Source: Pasteurellaceae bacterium Macca (GTDB taxonomy: Bacteria > Pseudomonadota > Gammaproteobacteria > Enterobacterales > Pasteurellaceae). From it: DNA of 24,000 bases. Made by a program: the position numbers and the translations under genes. Where the stretch lies: the NCBI GenBank assembly GCA_023101485.1, contig LVZB01000001.1, positions 989,399-1,013,398 on the forward strand, read 5' to 3'. Position 1 is the first letter of the stretch; every line of letters starts with the position of its first letter. Below are positions 2 to 20,434 of this stretch, piece after piece. The notes beneath the pieces were generated by a model, which was given only the letters and a program-made list of their open reading frames with translations, was not told the origin of the DNA and made no database searches.

Positions 2-259
2 ATCAAATTTGTCTTTGAGGGGTTGCCTGCGGTTATCTTCTCGCCATACTGTTTCGTTAGCATAATTGATGGTACAAAACGGCTAAATGAGATGGGATAT
101 TACCCTGAAAATGCGCCTGTTTGGATTGTCGATCACCCTCGTGCTTGTGTGGATTACCTTTACTACGCCGTACTAAAAACAGGCGCTAGCGCTATTGGGC
201 ATGTGATACTTGATGATGGTTTCCAAGTGGTGAGCATAAACAATCTATCTATGCTTTGA
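2..259 (+). CDS. hypothetical protein, C-terminal part (frame open to the left window edge)
   Basis: Frame 2 is open from base 2 (IKFVFEGLPAV...) to TGA 257-259. Track ORF 23..259 is its tail. Ordinary G+C, no motif recognised. Confidence 0.35.
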   Translation: MKFVFEGLPAVIFSPYCFVSIIDGTKRLNEMGYYPENAPVWIVDHPRACVDYLYYAVLKTGASAIGHVILDDGFQVVSINNLSML

Positions 260-395
260 TTGATGTGTTAGAACCCCATTTAACCAATGATGAAAGGGAG
301 AATTTACGATTATGGAAACACAAGAATCTAATAATATATTAAAAACCATCGTCTATATTCTAAGAATTTCATTATTTCACTTCCTTAATTAATTT

Positions 396-1658
396 TTAAA
401 TCGAAAATCTGTTATATTGCACTAAATCACAATATTTATTAGTTTCCAATGTAACCTCATAAAAATAATCTATTTTATTAACTATGCTTGCAAAATCCAA
501 ATTGCTAATTGATGAAAATTCATCAGTATTTAATCCTGTATTTAAAACATATTTATAATCATCAAAATCATAGAATTTCTCTTCATTTGTAGATGTTAAG
601 TTCATATGAATTTTAGTTGATTTAGCCAACAAACAAATATATTGAAAATCTTTATCTATATATTGAGTATTATTGTTAGGATGAGCCATAGAAAAATGTT
701 GATTTGGTGTTAACATAATCAAGTTTTCTACATAATCAGCAATATCTGGAAATTCCGATTGTGCAAAAATATGATGTACTTGTGTTGCATTTACTATTTC
801 AGTTGGCTGAGATACTTCTGATTTACCATCAAACATGGCATCATTGAACTTACGAACCGCTTTTTTAGCTTTATTAACGGTATAATTTGCCAAAGCTCTT
901 GCTTGTAATTGAGATGTGGTAAGTTCAAACTCAGACCTAGTGATGGATTTTTCTTTACCGCTAAGCTCATCTCTCCAGTTTGAACGATTATATTGCAAAT
1001 CATTCAATGTTATGACATATTTAGAAATTCTACCTTTCTCAGTTCCTAGTTTTCTCAATTTAAAAGCTAGTGGATTTATTACTTTTGTAAATATTCTTCC
1101 GCATTCAGTTTCACCATTAATTTTTGTGTGATTAATAGTAAATTGGATAAATCTATCTCTTACATCTTTATATGAATCTTTATCTTGAATTCTAAAAAAC
1201 TCTTCAAACGTAACCATCAATCCACTATCGTTTAAAACTTTACAAATATAATAATATAAAAAGTTCAAGGCATTCATTGGTCTTAATGCAATTTTATTCA
1301 AAACATCCTTATTATTTATAGAATAATAGTACCTATTTTTCTCTTTTCTTACATTTAGTATTTTACTATATCCTAATAATTTAATAGGTTGTCCAAAATA
1401 TTTATCATATTCATTCCCAGCTTTTAATTCAGGGTCAGGTTTTGAAAAAATAGCAATAACATTTTCTCTAGCATAATCACTATGCCAAATATCTGATACA
1501 GTGAATTCATCTACATGCATCGTTTCTACATATTCATTAATACAGTCTGCAATAATAGATACTACATCATAAGTACATTTTTGATCTATCCATCTTGCAT
1601 CACCTGATTTTCTAATATCAAAATCATATTGATTTAAAAATTTTTCATATATTTCCAT
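396..1658 (-). CDS. putative restriction endonuclease with C-terminal HNH (His-Me finger) motif
   Basis: 420-aa ORF. The C-terminal segment ATQVHHIFAQSEFPDIADYVENLIMLTPNQHFSMAH fits HH...N...(N)H spacing of HNH nucleases. ATG 1658 lies 1 nt after the methyltransferase stop (TAA, 1662-1660), with AAGGAG about 8 nt upstream, suggesting translational coupling. The N-terminal ~290 aa carry no motif I recognise. Confidence 0.6.
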   Translation of the reverse strand: MEIYEKFLNQYDFDIRKSGDARWIDQKCTYDVVSIIADCINEYVETMHVDEFTVSDIWHSDYARENVIAIFSKPDPELKAGNEYDKYFGQPIKLLGYSKILNVRKEKNRYYYSINNKDVLNKIALRPMNALNFLYYYICKVLNDSGLMVTFEEFFRIQDKDSYKDVRDRFIQFTINHTKINGETECGRIFTKVINPLAFKLRKLGTEKGRISKYVITLNDLQYNRSNWRDELSGKEKSITRSEFELTTSQLQARALANYTVNKAKKAVRKFNDAMFDGKSEVSQPTEIVNATQVHHIFAQSEFPDIADYVENLIMLTPNQHFSMAHPNNNTQYIDKDFQYICLLAKSTKIHMNLTSTNEEKFYDFDDYKYVLNTGLNTDEFSSISNLDFASIVNKIDYFYEVTLETNKYCDLVQYNRFSI

Positions 1659-1659
1659 T

Positions 1660-4176
1660 TTAAATCTCCTTATTTACTCCAAACCAATAACAGCTTATTT
1701 TGTCAACATTTAATGAGCGAGTTTGATAATTTCTTGCTATCTTATAGAAATTCCTAAATTCATCACTAGAAATATAATCCATTTGTGTTTTAGACAGAAT
1801 TAGATTTTCATTTTTAGGGATCAAAATTGCAATGGAACCATTAACTATGTAGCCATTTTCTTTTTTTATAAGCCGTGGTTTATAAGTCATATTTGGCGTT
1901 AAATATACATTGCTATTATTAAAATATTTTCCTACTGCCAATTTTGATAACTGCTCATTTTCAACAAATGAATCGTATCCATTTATTGATGTTATTTCCC
2001 CATTATCTAAAATATTTCTTGATTTTAACACCCTGATACTATATTTATCAGTCTTATTCAGTGATGAATTACCATTCGTAATTTGTCTGTCTCTAAAAAC
2101 ATCAAATACACCAAAATTCATGTTCTTAAATACTTCATCAAAAAAGTCATTCCTATATATTATCCAATAAGGTAAATTTGAATCAAAAATATATTGACTT
2201 TTTTGAACGAGCGAAATATCTAGAGTAGTAGAAATAACTTTTGTATATGATGATTCTCTTTTAGTATTTATCATTAAATTAACAGTTTCTACTAATACTC
2301 CTTTGAAACCATTTTCTCCAAAATCTATAATACTATCTATCCTATAGTTTTTTAACCATTCTCTAGTTGTAGAAAATTCTGGTGTATTAAGAATATTTTT
2401 TGGCATAATCATAGAAATATAATCAGAAAATCTTACTGATTTCTCTAAAATGAATTCTGCTAAATTTGTTGATTCTTTATTTATATTATCTTTTAGTAAT
2501 GAATTTCTATATGAGCCATTAATTTTAGAAAATGGTGGATTTCCTATAATTAAATCAACTCTATTGCATTCGCATTCATAATTCATAAAATCAGAACACA
2601 CAAATTTTAAAGAAAAGTTCGATGGAATATTATTTTTATCATACAAAATTTTAAGTAATTCTACTGTATCAGAATCTACATCAATTACTGTAAGATTTAC
2701 ATGTCTTTTATTTTCATACTTTTTAAAAATAAATGGTAAAAAATTTCCCGAACCAACTGATGGTTCTATTATTTCAAGTTCATCTTTTTCAAATTCTGGC
2801 AAATTTTCAAATATTTCTTGTATTATAAATTTATTTGTGAAATATGCTGAGTGCTGTTGTCTTTTTGAATTAGCATATTCTATAATCGTTGAAAATGAAG
2901 ATAAACTGTATCTATCTTTATTTTTTAATAAAAACTCTTTTAAATTATCAGTGTTATCAAGATTATGTTTTTCAATTATTTCTTTAATGTCTTTTTTAGT
3001 TAATTTAGGAAATGAAATATTTTTTTTAATTTTATAAGCAATTTGTCTAAATATAGCAGTAGGCACAGCTTCTCCTATACTTTGCCTAATATTCATTTCT
3101 TCCTTTTTTGATATTTTTTGTTTTTCTATAATTGGCAATTGATTCAAATAGTCTAAATCATAATTAATCCATTTAAACGATTCTGGAATAGTCATCATAC
3201 GCATTAATTCTCTGATAGAAAAAACTCTATTATCAACTGGATGAACAGTATTTTGACTAGCCATTTGATCGTTTCTTGTATGAATACATGGCGCTACTTT
3301 ATCATAAATTTGTCTAGTATATTTATCTGCATTTTTCGATTTATTGATGACTATTTTTCCATCAATAATTCTATGTGGCTTTAATTCATCCTCCTTATTA
3401 TCAAAAGCACTTTGTCCCTGTTCTAAATTTTCTATCCATGACAACATATATTTTGGGTAAACTCTAAAGCTATGAAAAAAGTCGTTGGAATCATACTCTC
3501 CCCAATTTAAACTTTTCATATCTCCTATAATCTCATAAAGAGTTTTTTCTGAAACATAACTTGGCACAAGTTCAACTGGAGATATTTCATTAGAAAACAT
3601 CTTATCAACACCTATTACAAGTGTACGAGTTCTAGAAGAATTTGAACCATAATTTTTAAAATTAAGAACTTCGTTATGAATTAAATATCTATCTCCCAGC
3701 TCATTAGTTATCATATCTCCAATAGCCACAACATTCCCTTGTTTATCTATACAACCAGTTTTCCAAAATGCTGACACATTCTCAAACACAAAAAATCTTG
3801 GATTTATATTTTTAATCAAATCCACACTTTCTTTTATTAAGCTATTTCTTTCAATTTCTTTGTCTTTTTTCTTGTGATTAGCAACACTCATACCTTGGCA
3901 AGGTGGAGTAGCTATAACAACATCAACTCTATCATTTCCAAGTTTATTCCATTTTTCTATTTCCTGATATATAAGATTTTTCGTTGAGTATTCCTTTATA
4001 TCCGCTGCAATATACCCGCTTTCAAATTTACACTTATTATTTAATTTCTGTATGTTTAATCTTTTTTCTAATAATTCATTCGTTGCTATACATTCAAATC
4101 CCTCCTGTTTAAACCCATAGCAACCTACTCCTGCAGAAGAAAACAACGAAATATATGTAGGTTTATTCTGTATCAT
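1660..4176 (-). CDS. bifunctional DNA methyltransferase: N-terminal C5-cytosine MTase fused to C-terminal N6-adenine MTase
   Basis: 838-aa ORF. The N half has the ordered C5-MTase motifs: I FSSAGVGCYGF, IV PPCQGMS, VI FVFENV, VIII SSRTRTLVIG, IX FSIRELMRMMTIPESF, X GEAVP. The C half has the amino-MTase motifs I IIEPSVGSGNF and IV IIGNPPF. Its start overlaps the stop of the upstream HTH gene by 4 nt (ATGA). Confidence 0.85.
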   Translation of the reverse strand: MIQNKPTYISLFSSAGVGCYGFKQEGFECIATNELLEKRLNIQKLNNKCKFESGYIAADIKEYSTKNLIYQEIEKWNKLGNDRVDVVIATPPCQGMSVANHKKKDKEIERNSLIKESVDLIKNINPRFFVFENVSAFWKTGCIDKQGNVVAIGDMITNELGDRYLIHNEVLNFKNYGSNSSRTRTLVIGVDKMFSNEISPVELVPSYVSEKTLYEIIGDMKSLNWGEYDSNDFFHSFRVYPKYMLSWIENLEQGQSAFDNKEDELKPHRIIDGKIVINKSKNADKYTRQIYDKVAPCIHTRNDQMASQNTVHPVDNRVFSIRELMRMMTIPESFKWINYDLDYLNQLPIIEKQKISKKEEMNIRQSIGEAVPTAIFRQIAYKIKKNISFPKLTKKDIKEIIEKHNLDNTDNLKEFLLKNKDRYSLSSFSTIIEYANSKRQQHSAYFTNKFIIQEIFENLPEFEKDELEIIEPSVGSGNFLPFIFKKYENKRHVNLTVIDVDSDTVELLKILYDKNNIPSNFSLKFVCSDFMNYECECNRVDLIIGNPPFSKINGSYRNSLLKDNINKESTNLAEFILEKSVRFSDYISMIMPKNILNTPEFSTTREWLKNYRIDSIIDFGENGFKGVLVETVNLMINTKRESSYTKVISTTLDISLVQKSQYIFDSNLPYWIIYRNDFFDEVFKNMNFGVFDVFRDRQITNGNSSLNKTDKYSIRVLKSRNILDNGEITSINGYDSFVENEQLSKLAVGKYFNNSNVYLTPNMTYKPRLIKKENGYIVNGSIAILIPKNENLILSKTQMDYISSDEFRNFYKIARNYQTRSLNVDKISCYWFGVNKEI

Positions 4177-4376
4177 TCTTTTTCCTCAGTTTCAAAATTT
4201 TCATCCGCAATATGTTCACCAATATCACTGACATCACAATTTAATTCTTCGCAAATTTTATCTATCATTCTCAAACTAATATATTTATCTCTTCCCATAT
4301 TTACTAGCATCGCTGAATTTATTCCAGTAATATTCTTCAAATTCCTCTTAGACATATTTCTATCAATAAGCACCAC
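4173..4376 (-). CDS. small XRE/Cro-type HTH protein (candidate controller C-protein of the R-M cassette)
   Basis: 67-aa ORF. NMSKRNLKNITGINSAMLVNMGRDKYISLRMIDKICEELNCDVSDI matches the short YozG/HTH_26-like layout. GTG start has no Shine-Dalgarno. Stop overlaps the MTase ATG. Confidence 0.6.
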   Translation of the reverse strand: MVLIDRNMSKRNLKNITGINSAMLVNMGRDKYISLRMIDKICEELNCDVSDIGEHIADENFETEEKE

Positions 4377-4381
4377 AATTT

Positions 4382-4412
4382 ATTATAACTATATTATTTT
4401 ACTTTAATTCAA
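4382..4412 (-). promoter_or_regulatory. candidate sigma70 promoter giving a leaderless transcript for the 67-aa HTH gene
   Basis: On the minus strand, TATAAT (4387-4382) ends 5 nt before the GTG at 4376. TTGAAT (4412-4407) lies 19 nt upstream, which is over-long spacing, and overlaps the stop of the preceding gene. Confidence 0.3.
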
Positions 4413-4803
4413 CAGAAATCGTTTCTGCGGTTTGATAAATGAGTTTTTTACCTAATGGTGCTGTATTTCTTCCTTTTTCAAGTAGTTTAATTTCTTCATT
4501 AACTAAATCTTTTTCAGATATTTGTTCAATAAACATTCCACCCCTCCCTGTTACTAACCAATTCAAATTGATATTCATTTTTTTGCAGATTTTATTCAGG
4601 GCTTCTACATTTGGATCTCGTTCTTCTCTTAAATAGTTTTGTACTGAACGATAAGGAATTTCTGTTATTTCAGAAAAAGCTTTAATCGTAAGTGATTGAG
4701 TATCTAGCAAGAGTTTAAGTCTATTAGCTATGCTCATTTGAGTATTTTTACTTAATTTTTTATGCTCTTTATGGTACATAAAAGCAATCTGATTATACCA
4801 CAT
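4399..4803 (-). CDS. CI-repressor-like HTH regulator
   Basis: 134-aa ORF. SIANRLKLLLDTQSLTIKAFSEITEIPYRSVQNYLREERDPNVEALNKICKKMNINLNWLVTGRGG resembles the phage CI repressor N-terminal HTH, including the W-L-x-T-G signature. The true start is probably internal: ATG at 4779 or 4737. The first 8 codons overlap a TGgTATAAT promoter element. Confidence 0.6.
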   Translation of the reverse strand: MWYNQIAFMYHKEHKKLSKNTQMSIANRLKLLLDTQSLTIKAFSEITEIPYRSVQNYLREERDPNVEALNKICKKMNINLNWLVTGRGGMFIEQISEKDLVNEEIKLLEKGRNTAPLGKKLIYQTAETISVELK

Positions 4804-4821
4804 TGGGTCTGTATTTTAACT
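4792..4821 (-). promoter_or_regulatory. candidate extended -10 promoter for the HTH-HTH-MTase-nuclease operon
   Basis: On the minus strand, TGgTATAAT spans 4800-4792. A -35-like TTAAAA/GTTAAA at 4814-4820 (16-17 nt spacer) lies inside the putative IS1595-family terminus. Confidence 0.35.
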
Positions 4822-5862
4822 TAAAACATCCGTAAAATCAAAGAACAAATGGCACAACACTTCCTCCTATCAAGCAAAGCTCGTACGCTTTCTCCGCTCA
4901 AAATAGCTCGTCTATCTGATGCGGAAGCGTTTGCGATATTGTGCCAATTACGTCGGGGAAGTGAAAAAGAGCAAATCTGCCCGAAATGTGGCGTACAACA
5001 TACTGTTTACAAAATCACCACACGTAACCGGTGGAGATGCCGATATTGTAAACATACATTCAGTATTACTTCTGGAACTATATTTTCCAATCACAAACTG
5101 CCTCTTCAGACTTACCTATTTGCTATCGCCTTGTTTGTTAATGCCGTAAAAGGCATTTCCGCTTGCCAATTATCACGTGATTTAAACGTACAATATAAGA
5201 CTACCTTTACGCTCGCTCATAAAATCCGTGAGAGCCTAATCGTGCAGCGTGAGCTGTTTCCGCTTTAGGGTGAAATCCATATTGATGGAACGTATGTACA
5301 TTCCGCCCCACGTCCTAAAAATAAGAAATTGGATAGAGTGGATAGACGTTTGAAAGAAAATGCCAATCCAAATAAGCGGGCGATTTTGGTGATGCGTGAA
5401 CGTTATACCGAACAAGAAACCTTAGCGAACCAACAATTAGTCGGTGCAAAAAAGACCATCACCTTTCCTATTTTATCCGAAAATACCGCCACCGTGAACA
5501 AACTCGCAACCGCCTATATTGAGCCAAACAGTCGCATTCACACAGACGAAAATTCAGCCTATGATGAACTGATGATACATTACGACTTGCAACGGGTAAA
5601 CAATCAAAAAAGTATCGCAACGATGACGGCATTACCAACAATCTCGCCGAAAGCTATTTCGCTCGTTTCAAACGAATGTATTACGGTCAAGTGCATAAAA
5701 TGATTAACCTTTACCTTGATAATTATACGAACGAAATATCCTACCGAGAAGATACTCGTAAATTGGATAATCTAACGATTTTCAATGACGTGGCTCACAA
5801 ATGCCTTTCCACTTCCAATGATAATGACTGGGTAGGCTATTGGTAGGGCAATCACAGACAAA
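4804..5862 (+). mobile_element. decayed IS1595-family (ISXO2-like) insertion sequence
   Basis: GGGTCTGT at 4804 sits 45 nt before the transposase ATG. It matches 7 of the first 8 bases of the IS1016-like terminus GGGGCTGT in this same window. A degenerate inverted copy (..ACAGAC at 5854-5859) follows directly after the transposase stop. The transposase frame is broken twice. Confidence 0.6.
4849..5846 (+). pseudogene. IS1595-family transposase, inactivated (in-frame TAG plus frameshift)
   Basis: N-terminal zinc ribbon CPKCG...CRYCKHTF and an ISXO2-like body. An in-frame TAG at 5266-5268 splits ...ELFPL*GEIHIDGTYVH. A frameshift near the A6 run at ~5606-5611 moves the conserved tail GITNNLAESYFARFKRMYYGQVHKM...EISYREDTRKLDN into frame 3, ending at TAG 5844-5846. 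Confidence 0.8.
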
Positions 5863-13636: not shown

Positions 13637-13861
13637 GTGATTCAAAGTTGGGGAAATATGTTCAAAGCCATCAGTTTTATTGAAACACTTTTTGTGTTGG
13701 TGCTGATTTCCCTCTCATTAATGCTTTTTATTCCGCAACACTTTCAATTAAATGATTATATTGCGTTAAATAATGAAATCGACCAAGTGAAATCTTTCAT
13801 TTATAACATTCAACAAAAAGCACGATATAGCAATAAAAATGGGGCTGTCCTAGATAACTAG
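13637..13861 (+). pseudogene. prepilin-type (pseudopilin/competence-pilin-like) gene truncated by IS insertion
   Basis: MFKA|ISFIETLFVLVLISLSLMLF gives a short leader, Glu at +5 and a hydrophobic helix, the prepilin methylation-domain pattern. The likely start is ATG 13658. The last 6 codons plus stop (GAVLDN*) are read from the IS inverted repeat, and no continuation is found downstream of the IS. Confidence 0.55.
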
Positions 13862-14559
13862 ACCAAACTCTCTTTAACTAATTGTTTTAGAAAGGAAATT
13901 TGAGACTTTAAGTTACTGTGATTAAAACGCCATTCACATTCTTTCAAATACAGCCCAAAATGAGCTTTGGGAATACCATTAAATTTGCGTAAATGGCGTT
14001 TTGCTTGGTTCCAGAAATTCTCAATTCCGTTAATGTGATTTTGTTTTTCTGCAAAGTGCGTACTATGGTTGATACGAAAATGATTAAATTCACTCACATC
14101 AAGTACATCATAACTTCGATAGAAATCCGTGTAAACAATGCTATCAGGCTTAACTTGTTCTCGAATTATCGGTAACAACGTGGCGGATTGCGTGTTCGGT
14201 ACGGCAACAGTATAAACTTTGCCATTGCGTTTCAACAGCCCGAATACCGCAGTTTTACCCGCTGCACCACGTCCACGCTTGCCTTTGCGTGTACCACCAA
14301 AATAGCTTTCATCGGCTTCTATTTCCCCATCAAACATCTCCAAATGTGGGCTGTTTTGATAGATAAGAAATCGCAAGCGATGAAAATAGTAAGCGGCAGT
14401 TGTCTTGTTTACATTCACTAGTTCAGCAGCAGTTCTCGCTGTAACTCCTGCAACAAATAGTTCAATGAGTTTATTTTGTTTGTGCTGACTTAAACGACTT
14501 TTTCTCATTTGACTATCTTAACCCAAATCGAGTTTTTAGTCGTTATCTAGGACAGCCCC
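13841..14559 (-). mobile_element. intact IS1016-like element (IS1595 family), 719 bp
   Basis: Perfect 18-bp terminal inverted repeats: GGGGCTGTCCTAGATAAC (13841-13858) and GTTATCTAGGACAGCCCC (14542-14559). They flank a single uninterrupted transposase ORF. Confidence 0.9.
13858..14508 (-). CDS. IS1016-type (IS1595 family) transposase
   Basis: 216 aa. MRKSRLSQHKQNKLIELFVAGVTARTAAELVNVNKTTAAYYFHRLR...EADESYFGG...VYTDFYRSYD...INHSTHFA...INGIENFWNQAKRHLRKFNGI is the typical IS1016 transposase layout. Confidence 0.9.
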   Translation of the reverse strand: MRKSRLSQHKQNKLIELFVAGVTARTAAELVNVNKTTAAYYFHRLRFLIYQNSPHLEMFDGEIEADESYFGGTRKGKRGRGAAGKTAVFGLLKRNGKVYTVAVPNTQSATLLPIIREQVKPDSIVYTDFYRSYDVLDVSEFNHFRINHSTHFAEKQNHINGIENFWNQAKRHLRKFNGIPKAHFGLYLKECEWRFNHSNLKSQISFLKQLVKESLV

Positions 14560-18143: not shown

Positions 18144-18797
18144 TTATTTCAAATGCCCTTCTTCCAAGACCAAGCACGGTTTTGGACGTTGAGTAATGAT
18201 GTGGGTATCGTGGGTAGCGATTAACACCGTCGTCCCCGTTTTGTTAACTTCCTCAAACAAGCGGAAGATCTCAAAGGAGAGTTTGTCATCGAGGTTACCG
18301 GTTGGCTCATCGGCAAGGAGCACATCCGGGCGATGCACAATGGCGCGGGCAATGCCGACACGTTGCTGTTCCCCACCGGAAAGATGGCGAGGGAGGAAGT
18401 TGAGCTTATTTTCTAACCCGACACGCGCTAATGCCATTTTGGCTTCACGGATGGCGATAGATTGTGCTACGCCCATAATGATCAACGGTAGAGAAACGTT
18501 ATCTAAAATCGAACGATCAGAGAGCAAGCTATAATGTTGATGCACCATACCAATTTGACGGCGTAGGAAGGGCAATTCATGCTCGCTAAGGCGTGTAATA
18601 TCGTGTCCGTTGAAGATCACCTGCCCACCGTTGGCGCGTTCAATCCCCATAATCAGTTTTAACAGTGTGGTTTTCCCTGCACCGGAATGTCCTGTGATGT
18701 ACGCCATTTCACCTTTGGGTAAGTGAAAGTTGATTCTTTGCAACGCAGGGCGACCACCGCCTTTGTAGGCTTTGCTGACATTGTTAAAGGTGATCAT
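18144..18797 (-). CDS. ftsE: cell-division ABC transporter ATPase FtsE
   Basis: Walker A GHSGAGKTT, signature LSGGEQQR, Walker B LLADEPTG. Overlaps ftsY by 4 nt. Confidence 0.95.
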   Translation of the reverse strand: MITFNNVSKAYKGGGRPALQRINFHLPKGEMAYITGHSGAGKTTLLKLIMGIERANGGQVIFNGHDITRLSEHELPFLRRQIGMVHQHYSLLSDRSILDNVSLPLIIMGVAQSIAIREAKMALARVGLENKLNFLPRHLSGGEQQRVGIARAIVHRPDVLLADEPTGNLDDKLSFEIFRLFEEVNKTGTTVLIATHDTHIITQRPKPCLVLEEGHLK

Positions 18798-20434
18798 ACT
18801 TTTTCATTCTCCTGTGCGAAAAGGGCATCAATAAATTCTTCTGCATTGAATGGGCGGAGATCTTCAATTTTCTCTCCCACCCCAATGTAGCGAATAGGGA
18901 TATTAAACTGATCCGCAATCGCAAAAATGACCCCACCTTTGGCAGTGCCGTCTAATTTGGTGAGGGTAATACCCGTTAGCCCTACGGCTTCATTAAAGAG
19001 TTTTGCTTGGCTGATGGCGTTTTGCCCTGTGCCAGCATCAAGGGTGAGCATAATCTCGTGGGGGGCAGTTTCATCATATTTTTTCATCACACGGACGATT
19101 TTTTTCAACTCGTCCATCAAGTTATTTTTATTTTGCAAACGACCAGCGGTATCGGCAATCAACACATCCACGCCCTTAGCTGCGGCGGATTGCATGGCAT
19201 CGAAAATAACCGAAGCCGAATCTGCCCCCGTGGCTTGTGCCACCACAGGGATCTGATTACGTTCTCCCCACACTTGCAACTGCTCAACAGCGGCGGCTCG
19301 GAAGGTATCGCCGGCGGCTAACATCACCGATTTCCCTTCCCCTTGGAATTTGCGTGCGAGTTTGCCGATGGTGGTGGTTTTACCCACGCCATTTACCCCG
19401 ACCATTAAGATCACATAAGGTTTTTTCTCTTCAATTATCAATGGCTTAGCAACAGGTTTAAGCACCTCGCCTAATTCGACTTTGAGTTGTTGATAGAGTA
19501 ATTCCGCATCTTGGAGCTGTTTTTTCGAGGCGTGTTGCGTTAAGTTATTGATAATTTTAGTGGTTGTTGGCATACCGAGGTCGGCTACTAACAACTGTTC
19601 TTCTAATTCCTCAAAGAGTTCATCATCAATTTTTTTACCACGGAAAAAGCCTAAAAAGCCAGAACCGATGCTCTGTTTTGTTTTGATTAACCCTTTGATT
19701 AAACGGCTAAAGAAGCCCCCTTCACTGGGTTTCTCGGGGTAGCTTTCTCCCCCTGCTGTTTCGGTAATGGCTTCTTCTGTCGCCTCTTCTTGGGCTTCAA
19801 CACTTTCCACTTGCGTTTGGCTCGGTGCAAATTCTTCTTCAAATTCGACCGCTTGTGCTGGGGCAGTTTCAGTAGTGAGTGCTTCCTGCGTGTCGGTGAG
19901 TTCAGTGACCGTTTCAACGCTTTCCGCTTGCGTTTGGTTCGGTGCAAATTCTTCTTCAAATTCGACCGCTTGTTCTGGGGCAGTTTCAATGGCTAGCACG
20001 TCCTGCGTGTCGGCTAGTTCAGTGGTCGTTTCAACACTTTCTGCCTGCGTTTCGCTCGGTGCAGATTCTGCTTCAAATTCGACCGCTTGTACTGGGGCAG
20101 TTTCAGTAGTGAGTGCTTCTTGTGTTTCGGCTAGTTCTGTGACCGTTTCGACACTTTCTGCCTGCGTTTGGCTTGGTGCAAATTCTGTTTCAAATTCGAC
20201 CGCTTGTTCTGGGGCAGTTTCAGTAGTGAGTGCTTCCTGCGTTTCGGTGAGTTCAGTGACCGTTTCGACACTTTCCGCTTGCGTTTGGCTCGGTGCAAAT
20301 TCTGCTTCAAATTCGACCGCTTGTTCTGGGGCTTCTTCGGGCGTTTCTGTCGGGGTGTCGAGGGTTTCTTCCGCTTCTTTTTTTCCAAAGCCTAACCACG
20401 ACCAAAATCCTTTCTTTTTCTTTTCTTCTGCCAT
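18794..20434 (-). CDS. ftsY: signal-recognition-particle receptor FtsY with repeat-expanded acidic A domain
   Basis: The NG domain has GVNGVGKTTT, DTAGR and TKLDGTAKGG. The N-terminal ~215 aa are acidic and contain 39-aa tandem repeats. Confidence 0.95.
   Translation of the reverse strand: MAEEKKKKGFWSWLGFGKKEAEETLDTPTETPEEAPEQAVEFEAEFAPSQTQAESVETVTELTETQEALTTETAPEQAVEFETEFAPSQTQAESVETVTELAETQEALTTETAPVQAVEFEAESAPSETQAESVETTTELADTQDVLAIETAPEQAVEFEEEFAPNQTQAESVETVTELTDTQEALTTETAPAQAVEFEEEFAPSQTQVESVEAQEEATEEAITETAGGESYPEKPSEGGFFSRLIKGLIKTKQSIGSGFLGFFRGKKIDDELFEELEEQLLVADLGMPTTTKIINNLTQHASKKQLQDAELLYQQLKVELGEVLKPVAKPLIIEEKKPYVILMVGVNGVGKTTTIGKLARKFQGEGKSVMLAAGDTFRAAAVEQLQVWGERNQIPVVAQATGADSASVIFDAMQSAAAKGVDVLIADTAGRLQNKNNLMDELKKIVRVMKKYDETAPHEIMLTLDAGTGQNAISQAKLFNEAVGLTGITLTKLDGTAKGGVIFAIADQFNIPIRYIGVGEKIEDLRPFNAEEFIDALFAQENEKV
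19796..20332 (-). repeat. about 4.6 tandem in-frame copies of a 117-bp (39-aa) unit inside ftsY
   Basis: The unit is APEQAVEFEAEFAPSQTQAESVETVTELTETQEALTTET. The USS core accgcttgt recurs at 19848, 19965, 20082, 20199 and 20316, exactly 117 nt apart. Confidence 0.9.

What the first reader, a model, noticed from the sequence alone, without database searches (positions are those of the whole stretch)
1660..4176. One polypeptide carrying a complete C5-cytosine MTase and an N6-adenine MTase
All diagnostic m5C motifs occur in canonical order in residues ~1-380: FxGxG, PCQ, ENV, the RxR block, the motif IX block, and GEAVP in place of GNAVP. A separate amino-MTase module with EPSVGSGNF and GNPPF occupies residues ~470-838. 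Mixed-chemistry fusions are uncommon. As far as I recall, the known precedents are the Type IIS enzymes M.Alw26I and M.Esp3I, where each domain methylates one strand of an asymmetric site. That would predict an asymmetric recognition sequence and a Type IIS partner nuclease here.
Basis: partly seen in the sequence, partly recalled or inferred. Interest (0 to 1): 0.65.

Follow-up and report, generated by a model that had tools for sequence, protein, structure and literature searches.

The report
HpyAV/Hin4II-type fused methylase plus nuclease
The 838-residue protein is a real two-in-one DNA methylase (cytosine-C5 half plus adenine-N6 half) next to its own cutting enzyme, but it is an ordinary new member of the well-studied HpyAV/Hin4II restriction-modification family, which targets CCTTC.

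Summary
ORF 1660-4176 (-) encodes 838 aa: a canonical C5-cytosine MTase (Pfam PF00145, E 1.8e-34, residues 8-385) followed by a gamma-class N6-adenine MTase (about residues 392-838).

The fusion is not an assembly error. The same uninterrupted frame occurs in 54 of 58 complete related loci from named genomes.

The next gene (396-1658, -) encodes a 420-aa HNH nuclease. It is 53% identical to the Helicobacter pylori HpyAV orthologue and has the same catalytic H-H-N-H spacing. It is also 74% identical to a protein that GenBank names Hin4II.

The true precedent is not M.Alw26I or M.Esp3I, whose C5 domains are circularly permuted. It is M.HpyAV (hp0054, 823 aa), which has the same C5-then-N6A order and is 58% identical end to end. 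M.HpyAV was shown in 2010-2014 to put m5C on CCTTC and m6A on GAAGG. Hin4II is the split version (M1 + M2).

The cassette (about 365-4391, 27% GC) is a horizontally acquired island in a 43% GC Pasteurellaceae chromosome, beside IS1595 debris.

Verdict: a new member of a known kind, of low interest.

The parts
1660..4176 (-). Fused bifunctional DNA methyltransferase gene (838 aa), an M.HpyAV-type protein. GenBank MCK3655138.1, 'DNA methyltransferase [Pasteurellaceae bacterium Macca]'.
   Evidence: ORF. 100% identical to P0001. 58% identity over 829 aa to the H. pylori M.HpyAV orthologue. Full-length hit of 1082 bits to an 823-position PADLOC MTase_II profile.
3022..4176 (-). N-terminal C5-cytosine MTase domain (residues 1-385). 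Motifs I-X are in canonical order, and the target-recognition region lies between motifs VIII and IX (about residues 191-315).
   Evidence: PF00145, E 1.8e-34. Motif coordinates. A 387-position MTase_II profile aligns to residues 5-385, E 1.4e-181. PDB sequence hits to M.HaeIII and others.
3020..3027 (-). A8 tract on the coding strand (T8 on the + strand), codons 384-386, exactly at the junction between the two MTase modules.
   Evidence: A +1 or -1 slip would give a 390- or 391-aa C5-only product, with no in-frame restart codon in codons 379-440. Split relatives end M1 and start M2 at this same point. The A-run length here varies from 0 to 9 among relatives, so the tract is not conserved.
1669..3000 (-). 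C-terminal gamma-class N6-adenine DNA MTase module (residues 393-836): helical N-terminal part, motif I EPSVGSGNF, motif IV GNPPF, and a C-terminal target-recognition domain.
   Evidence: A 445-position MTase_II profile aligns to residues 393-836, E 2.2e-151. PF07669 is hit by 11 of 13 family members. A family profile hits M.TaqI. The AF2 model's best Foldseek hits are CamA, M.TaqI and M.BseCI.
396..1658 (-). Type IIS HNH restriction endonuclease gene (420 aa), an HpyAV/Hin4II homologue. GenBank MCK3655137.1. It starts 1 nt after the M stop codon.
   Evidence: 74% identical to 'restriction endonuclease Hin4II [Ureaplasma diversum]'. 53% identical to the H. pylori HpyAV orthologue. H295, H296, N312 and H321 have the same spacing as the published catalytic H294, H295, N311 and H320. 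PADLOC REase_II, 587 bits.
4173..4376 (-). Small Cro/C1-type HTH gene (67 aa as called) whose stop overlaps the M start. It is a candidate regulator of the cassette, and in this window it is truncated at its 5' end.
   Evidence: PF13443, E 9e-12. A homologue abuts the M gene in 22 of the 67 related loci. Relatives carry about 10 more N-terminal codons and their own promoter; the window lacks the ATG and has a 4-nt deletion.
365..4391 (.). Extent of the conserved R-M cassette. It lies inside a low-GC island (261-4848, 27-29% GC) flanked by 42-44% GC DNA.
   Evidence: blastn against 67 related loci gives homology only within 365-4391; the best match is L001, 82% over 3.9 kb. GC by segment and the profile.
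4849..5846 (+). Degraded IS1595-family transposase gene bordering the island. It is context, not part of the R-M system.
   Evidence: PF12760 and PF12762 hit two ORF pieces. An in-frame stop and a frameshift show in the three-frame translation.

Best explanation
This is a complete Type IIS restriction-modification cassette of the HpyAV/Hin4II family, acquired horizontally by a Pasteurellaceae chromosome.

Methylase. The 838-aa protein is two methyltransferases in one chain. By homology, the N-terminal C5-cytosine domain (canonical motif order, catalytic Cys93 in PCQ) methylates a cytosine on the CCTTC strand. The C-terminal gamma-class N6-adenine domain (NPPF at 546-549) methylates an adenine on the complementary GAAGG strand. 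An asymmetric site with no adenine on one strand is thereby protected on both strands.

Nuclease. The gene immediately downstream encodes a 420-aa nuclease with a single HNH (beta-beta-alpha-metal) active site: H295/H296, N312, H321. By homology it recognises CCTTC and cuts 6 and 5 nt downstream.

Expression. M and R are co-directional and separated by 1 nt, so they are probably co-transcribed.

Shown here: architecture, homology, intact catalytic motifs, and conservation of the fusion and of the gene order.

Shown by others for the H. pylori homologue: specificity, both methylation chemistries, and the HNH catalytic residues.

Inferred for this locus: CCTTC specificity, and that the system is active.
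For: 1. M is 58% identical over 829 aligned residues to the 823-aa protein of H. pylori SA221C. The R neighbour of that protein has H294, H295, N311 and H320, exactly the published HpyAV catalytic residues (PMC2816704).
2. R is 53% identical to that HpyAV orthologue and 74% identical to a GenBank protein named Hin4II.
3. Published HpyAV and Hin4II share only 48% (R) and 56-57% (M) identity, yet both recognise CCTTC 6/5. The window proteins therefore lie within the identity range that keeps specificity in this family.
4. The target-recognition regions are as conserved as the catalytic cores. Against H. pylori the m5C TRD is 62% identical and the m6A TRD 60%, versus 45-68% for the cores.
5. SMRT data assign m5C on CCTTC (91.9% of sites) and m6A on GAAGG (96.0%) to the single gene hp0054 (PMC3936762).
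6. All 58 complete related loci show the order m5C, m6A, R. Of these, 54 are fused. Two Mollicutes loci look split only because TGA codes for Trp. Two are genuinely split.
7. PADLOC profiles of 823, 387 and 445 positions hit the whole protein, residues 5-385 and residues 393-836 respectively. These lengths equal the published lengths of M.HpyAV, M1.Hin4II and M2.Hin4II.
8. The C-terminal half folds like the N6-adenine DNA MTases CamA, M.TaqI and M.BseCI.
9. The cassette is 27% GC against 43% in the flanks, and its best DNA match is an uncultured Eubacterium genome (82%).
Against: - No biochemical or methylome data exist for this organism, so the CCTTC specificity rests on 53-58% identity to a characterised enzyme.
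- I could not obtain the actual Hin4II or strain 26695 sequences. The comparison used an H. pylori SA221C orthologue and profile lengths.
- The window shows no avoidance of CCTTC/GAAGG in core DNA: 31 sites observed against 30-39 expected. The absence of sites in the 4.6-kb island (2-3 expected) is not significant.
- The AlphaFold model of R is poor across the HNH region (pLDDT below 50) and gave no significant fold match.
- The upstream HTH gene that accompanies the cassette in many relatives is truncated at its 5' end here, so regulation may be abnormal.
Confidence: 0.85

Rival explanations
1. Same family and same mechanism, but the recognition sequence has drifted from CCTTC, for example by one base pair.
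For: Identity to the characterised H. pylori proteins is only 53-58%. [quoted passage not shown] No methylome data are available for this clade.
Against: HpyAV and Hin4II keep CCTTC at 48-57% identity. Both TRDs are as conserved as the catalytic cores. The paper's caveat was made for homologues at 29-34% identity, far more distant than this one.
Confidence: 0.1
2. The cassette is an inactive or decaying remnant: an orphan methylase with a dead nuclease, or a silenced operon.
For: The HTH gene has lost its start codon and native promoter. The island sits among degraded IS1595 transposase fragments. Chan et al. note an H. pylori G27 homologue with a frameshift in the HNH site.
Against: Both M and R are full length relative to homologues (838 against about 836 aa; 420 against about 420 aa). 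Neither has an internal stop, and all catalytic motifs are intact. A promoter-like site with an extended -10 lies upstream at 4819-4792.
Confidence: 0.08
3. It is a member of the Alw26I/Esp3I/BsmBI group of fused m6A+m5C methylases and recognises a GTCTC-type site.
For: The general idea is the same: a mixed-chemistry fusion in a Type IIS system with an HNH-type nuclease. That the Eco31I-family nucleases are HNH enzymes is from my own knowledge and was not tested here.
Against: The C5 domains of M.Alw26I, M.Esp3I and M.BsmBI are circularly permuted, with motifs IX-X before I-VIII (PMC5944983). This protein has the canonical order I-X. Its closest characterised relative over the full length is M.HpyAV. 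HpyAV-type nucleases are reported as not homologous to any restriction enzyme other than Hin4II.
Confidence: 0.01
4. The fusion is an artefact: two separate genes (M1, M2) joined by a sequencing or assembly error in the T8/A8 tract.
For: Split versions do exist, with the break at exactly this position: Hin4II M1 387 aa + M2 445 aa, Gilliamella and Snodgrassella, and an Acinetobacter towneri plasmid. Homopolymers are error-prone.
Against: - 54 of 58 complete related loci, from independent assemblies, are fused across this junction.
- The homologues at 83-85% identity are single chains of 836 aa.
- No in-frame start codon for a separate M2 exists in codons 379-440.
- In real split loci the junction reads stop codon, one base, then ATG, which is absent here.
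- Chan et al. resequenced the equivalent junction in H. pylori and confirmed a true fusion.
Confidence: 0.01

Closest known systems
HpyAV R-M system of Helicobacter pylori 26695 (M.HpyAV = hp0054, 823 aa; R.HpyAV = hp0053, 419 aa; CCTTC 6/5)
   Same: - Architecture: a single polypeptide with the C5-cytosine MTase at the N-terminus and a gamma-class N6-adenine MTase at the C-terminus.
- M precedes R on the same strand.
- R is an HNH nuclease of about 420 aa with identical spacing of the H-H-N-H catalytic residues.
- Identity to an H. pylori orthologue is 58% for M and 53% for R.
   Different: - The host is a Pasteurellaceae bacterium, not H. pylori.
- M is 15 residues longer.
- A small HTH gene (truncated here) abuts the M gene; no HTH67 homologue is detected upstream of M in the H. 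pylori locus.
- Specificity and activity are not measured here.
Hin4II R-M system of Haemophilus influenzae RFL4 (M1.Hin4II 387 aa m5C, M2.Hin4II 445 aa m6A, R.Hin4II 418 aa; CCTTC 6/5)
   Same: - Same three catalytic modules in the same order, and the host is also a Pasteurellaceae.
- The fused protein splits into pieces matching profiles of exactly 387 and 445 positions.
- A GenBank protein named Hin4II is 74% identical to the window's R.
   Different: Hin4II has two separate MTase genes; here they form one reading frame. The junction falls at the A8 tract.
M.Alw26I / M.Esp3I / M.BsmBI (fused m6A + m5C methylases of GTCTC-type Type IIS systems)
   Same: One polypeptide carries two methylation chemistries for the two strands of an asymmetric Type IIS site.
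   Different: Their C5 domains are circularly permuted, with motifs IX-X before I-VIII (PMC5944983); this one is canonical. They are a different lineage with a different recognition sequence. This is functional convergence, not family membership.
MnlI/HpyAVI (CCTC) and HphI (GGTGA) Type IIS systems
   Same: An asymmetric site is protected by one m5C and one m6A activity. For HpyAVI, M2 makes m5C on CCTC and M1 makes m6A on GAGG. MnlI and HphI are HNH enzymes. That HphI is protected by one m5C and one m6A MTase is from my own knowledge and was not checked here.
   Different: The two MTases are separate proteins, the m6A enzyme of HpyAVI is beta class, and the nucleases were not shown to be homologous to this one.

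Membership tests
HpyAV/Hin4II Type IIS R-M family | MTase homologous over its full length to M.HpyAV (C5 domain, then N6A domain) | tested here: met
   58% identity over 829 residues to the 823-aa H. pylori SA221C orthologue. Full-length 1082-bit hit to an 823-position profile.
HpyAV/Hin4II Type IIS R-M family | Nuclease homologous to R.HpyAV/R.Hin4II, with the HNH catalytic residues H-H-(15 aa)-N-(8 aa)-H | tested here: met
   53% identity to the H. pylori orthologue. 74% identity to a protein named Hin4II. H295, H296, N312, H321 against the published H294, H295, N311, H320. All four are invariant in 12 homologues.
HpyAV/Hin4II Type IIS R-M family | Gene order M then R, co-directional and adjacent | tested here: met
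   M 4176-1660 and R 1658-396 are on the same strand with a 1-nt gap. The same order occurs in all 58 complete related loci.
HpyAV/Hin4II Type IIS R-M family | Recognition of CCTTC with cleavage 6/5 | not testable with these tools
   Inferred from homology and TRD conservation. Site counts in 24 kb are uninformative.
HpyAV/Hin4II Type IIS R-M family | m5C on the CCTTC strand and m6A on the GAAGG strand, both made by the one MTase | not testable with these tools
   Shown for hp0054 by SMRT/Tet1 sequencing (PMC3936762). Here only the intact catalytic motifs of both domains are seen.
C5-cytosine DNA methyltransferases (Pfam PF00145) | Ten conserved motifs in canonical order, including the PCQ catalytic cysteine, ENV and motif X | tested here: met
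   PF00145 E 1.8e-34, covering profile positions 3-324 of 324. Motif positions. PDB sequence hits to M.HaeIII and others.
Gamma-class N6-adenine DNA methyltransferases (M.TaqI / Eco57I-like, PF07669) | AdoMet motif I precedes catalytic (D/N)PP(Y/F), the TRD is C-terminal, and the fold is M.TaqI-like | tested here: met
   - EPSVGSG at 471-477 comes before NPPF at 546-549.
- 11 of 13 family members hit PF07669, although the window protein itself falls below threshold.
- The family profile hits M.TaqI, E 2e-5.
- Foldseek gives CamA, M.TaqI and M.BseCI at E 1e-18 to 1e-14.
Alw26I/Esp3I/BsmBI fused methylases | Circularly permuted C5 domain (motifs IX-X precede I-VIII) | tested here: not met
   The permutation is described in PMC5944983. 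The window protein has the order I, IV, VI, VIII, IX, X and a collinear match to PF00145.
C-protein-controlled R-M systems | A small HTH controller gene with an operator (C-box) upstream that regulates R and/or M | tested here: inconclusive
   A 67-aa HTH_26 gene overlaps the M start, and homologues abut M in 22 of the 67 loci. No operator was identified, the family is not the classical C-protein Pfam family, and the gene is truncated at its 5' end here.

The most novel reading that the evidence does not exclude
The A8 tract lies exactly at the seam between the two methylase modules. It could act as a slipped-strand switch. A +1 or -1 slip yields a 390- or 391-aa C5-only enzyme like M1.Hin4II and abolishes the adenine methylase. 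That would toggle strand-specific methylation, or drive the evolutionary interconversion between the fused (HpyAV-type) and split (Hin4II-type) forms.
Probability: 0.03. Interest if true: 0.45.

Novelty: new member of a known kind. Interest (0 to 1): 0.15.

Why it matters
Practically, the result upgrades two generically annotated GenBank proteins ('DNA methyltransferase', 'restriction endonuclease') to a predicted HpyAV/Hin4II isoschizomer system. It predicts that this Pasteurellaceae strain carries m5C on CCTTC and m6A on GAAGG and will restrict unmodified incoming DNA. That is useful to know before attempting to transform the strain.

More broadly, the family survey shows that the C5+N6A fusion is the dominant form: 54 of 58 loci, spread across Firmicutes, Mollicutes, Proteobacteria, Actinobacteria, Bacteroidota and others. 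The split Hin4II arrangement breaks at one fixed seam.

None of this changes current understanding. The architecture, specificity and mechanism were published between 2006 and 2014.

Tried and rejected
- **Source contig.** An exact-sequence look-up of the source contig, to see DNA left of the window, found nothing on record. The left island boundary therefore could not be extended.
- **Nuclease versus PDB.** The sequence search found nothing.
- **Nuclease structure.** The AlphaFold model was low confidence (pLDDT 63, with the HNH region below 50). Foldseek gave no hit below E 0.24, only vague winged-helix resemblance in the N-terminal part. I draw no conclusion from it.
- **First structure job.** I redid it with substrings of search hits.
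- **Site avoidance.** CCTTC/GAAGG counts are not informative: 31 observed against 30-39 expected in core DNA, and 0 against 2-3 expected in the island.
- **Possible IS ends.** A 34-nt inverted repeat (34-67 / 5721-5754) first looked like IS ends bracketing the whole island. Its right arm lies inside the transposase coding sequence. The match is better explained as two diverged transposase C-terminal coding fragments in inverted orientation: 14 aa, 57% identity, weak. I rejected it as a terminal inverted repeat.
- **Plasmid and phage DNA searches.** These found only distant (66-69%) partial matches. One useful case emerged, a split M1/M2/R cassette on an Acinetobacter plasmid.
- **Conserved phase-variation tract at the junction.** Rejected, because A-run length there varies from 0 to 9 among relatives.
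- **tRNA and Rfam scans of the window.** Both came back empty.
Full report
**1. The observation**

The minus-strand ORF 1660-4176 is real and encodes 838 aa.

| Motif | Residues |
|---|---|
| FSSAGVG | 12-18 |
| PCQ | 92-94 |
| ENV | 132-134 |
| RTR | 182-184 |
| RELMR | 322-326 |
| GEAVP | 368-372 |
| EPSVGSG | 471-477 |
| NPPF | 546-549 |

Pfam's C5-cytosine methylase model covers residues 8-385 end to end at E 1.8e-34, and M.HaeIII and other solved C5 MTases are hit by sequence. The T8 tract at 3020-3027 is there too, in codons 384-386.

The C-terminal half on its own is only a weak Pfam match (MTS, E 2e-4). Three further tests settle what it is:
- In an alignment of 13 family members, 11 hit PF07669, the Eco57I-type N6-adenine methylase family.
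- A profile of that alignment hits M.TaqI.
- An AlphaFold model (mean pLDDT 80) has the N6-adenine DNA methylases CamA, M.TaqI and M.BseCI as top Foldseek matches, E 1e-18 to 1e-14.

**2. The fusion is genuine**

The protein is identical to GenBank MCK3655138.1 from 'Pasteurellaceae bacterium Macca'. More than 120 protein clusters at 61-85% identity have the same length of about 836 aa. They come from Veillonella, Streptococcus, Ureaplasma, Mycoplasmopsis, Psittacicella and Moraxella.

I scanned one genome per species with an alignment of the neighbouring nuclease and recovered 67 loci. In all 58 complete loci the order is C5 domain, N6A domain, nuclease.
- 54 loci are a single reading frame across the junction.
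- Two Mollicutes loci appear split only because TGA encodes Trp there.
- Two loci (Gilliamella, Snodgrassella) are truly split.
- An Acinetobacter towneri plasmid also carries the split form.

In split loci, M1 ends ('...KIKQVI*') and M2 begins ('MTEKEILQLI...') exactly where the window has its A8 tract ('...KIKKNISFPKLTKKDIKEII...'). A slip in the tract would give a 390- or 391-aa C5-only product, and there is no in-frame restart codon. The A-run length at this position varies from 0 to 9 among relatives. It therefore reflects AT-rich lysine codons rather than a conserved switch.

**3. What it is**

The gene one base downstream (396-1658, minus strand, 420 aa) has no Pfam hit. It has 1830 homologous clusters, and one at 74% identity is named 'restriction endonuclease Hin4II'.

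The literature gives the following.
- Chan et al. 2010 (PMC2816704) characterised HpyAV of H. pylori 26695 as a Type IIS HNH enzyme cutting CCTTC 6/5, with catalytic residues H294, H295, N311 and H320.
- They resequenced the MTase gene hp0054 and confirmed that M.HpyAV (823 aa) is a true fusion of a C5-cytosine MTase and an N6-adenine MTase.
- They noted that the isoschizomer Hin4II has the two as separate genes (M1 387 aa, M2 445 aa).
- They listed ten more fused homologues.
- Krebes et al. (PMC3936762) showed by SMRT sequencing that hp0054 accounts for m5C on CCTTC and m6A on GAAGG.

Locus L054 (H. pylori SA221C) carries an 823-aa M and a 422-aa R, and that R has H294, H295, N311 and H320. 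Comparison with it gives:
- The window's M is 58% identical over 829 residues.
- The window's R is 53% identical.
- The window's R has H295, H296, N312 and H321.

PADLOC profiles of 823, 387 and 445 positions match the whole protein, residues 5-385 and residues 393-836. These equal the published lengths of M.HpyAV, M1.Hin4II and M2.Hin4II.

**4. How it most likely works**

The site CCTTC/GAAGG has no adenine on one strand, so protecting both strands needs two chemistries. The C5 domain methylates the C-strand and the gamma-class N6A domain methylates the A-strand. The HNH nuclease binds the same site and cuts 6/5 nt away.

For this locus the specificity is an inference. It is a reasonable one for two reasons:
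- HpyAV and Hin4II share CCTTC at only 48% (R) and 56-57% (M) identity.
- The target-recognition regions of the window protein are as conserved against H. pylori (62% and 60%) as its catalytic cores are (45-68%).

**5.

The C5 domains of M.Alw26I, M.Esp3I and M.BsmBI are circularly permuted, with motifs IX-X ahead of I-VIII (PMC5944983). This protein is canonical. It works like them but is not a member of their family.

**6. Context**

Only 365-4391 of the window is homologous to related cassettes. The best match is an uncultured Eubacterium genome at 82% DNA identity. The island at 261-4848 has 27-29% GC, against 42-44% in the flanks.

A small HTH gene overlaps the M start, and homologues abut M in 22 of the 67 related loci. 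In the window it has lost its start codon, about ten codons and its native promoter.

Upstream lies an unrelated 134-aa HTH gene with a promoter-like site. Beyond that is a degraded IS1595-family transposase gene.

The rest of the window is housekeeping: fabR-like, oxyR-like, rph, yicC, matP, fabA, msrQP, ftsYEX, rsmD, tilS, secE and nusG.

**7. Verdict**

However, this is a new member of the already characterised HpyAV/Hin4II family, in which the mixed-chemistry fusion is the norm. Interest is low.

Noticed in passing
window 4290-4450 (- strand): The small HTH gene upstream of the methylase is truncated at its 5' end compared with relatives. They begin MAISYNRLWKLLIDKNMTK and have their own promoter and RBS. 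The window lacks that ATG, carries a 4-nt deletion, and abuts an unrelated gene.
   Followed up: partly
window 4399-4819 (- strand): A 134-aa XRE/RstR-like HTH gene is preceded by a promoter-like TTAAAA-16-TGgTATAAT at 4819-4792. It has low GC but is not part of the cassette conserved in relatives. It may now drive the whole HTH-M-R string.
   Followed up: partly
window 4849-5846 (+) and 26-67 (-): An IS1595-family transposase pseudogene, with an in-frame TAG at 5266 and a later frameshift, borders the island on the right. A weak 14-aa match to the same transposase C-terminus lies in inverted orientation at the left edge of the window. This hints that IS copies bracket the island.
   Followed up: partly
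window 13841-14559: A second, different and apparently intact small IS lies between fabA and msrQ. Its 216-aa transposase has a DDE_Tnp_IS1595 domain, and it has perfect 18-nt terminal inverted repeats GGGGCTGTCCTAGATAAC.
   Followed up: no
window 19796-20332: A 117-nt tandem repeat (4.6 copies, 87% matches), equivalent to a 39-aa unit, lies inside the N-terminal region of the ftsY gene (18794-20434, - strand). It explains the strong AT-skew dip there.
   Followed up: no
L043 4409-8206, L048 272-4018, L060 4379-8206: In three Lachnospiraceae metagenome-assembled genomes, the fused methylase and the nuclease share one reading frame with no stop between them (1248-1275 aa). The nuclease's own RBS and ATG are kept. 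These are possible M-R read-through triple fusions.
   Followed up: partly
L002 6461-6985, also L003-5, L013, L017-23, L058, L063; L009 3961-6984: Many related cassettes carry an extra conserved ORF of 165-186 aa between M and R, which the window lacks. It has no Pfam or PADLOC hit. In L009 it is in frame with the methylase, giving 1007 aa.
   Followed up: partly
L058 8238-9374: One related locus has a second, diverged copy of the nuclease (41% identity) directly after the first.
   Followed up: no
L026 4448-6986, L027 4449-6981, L068 1309-3814: Genuinely split M1/M2 versions (Hin4II-like) occur in the bee-gut Gilliamella and Snodgrassella and on an Acinetobacter towneri plasmid. In the two bee-gut loci, read at sequence level, the break falls at the same seam as the window's A8 tract. 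On the plasmid, the annotated gene boundaries (M1 389 aa, M2 449 aa) point to the same seam.
   Followed up: yes
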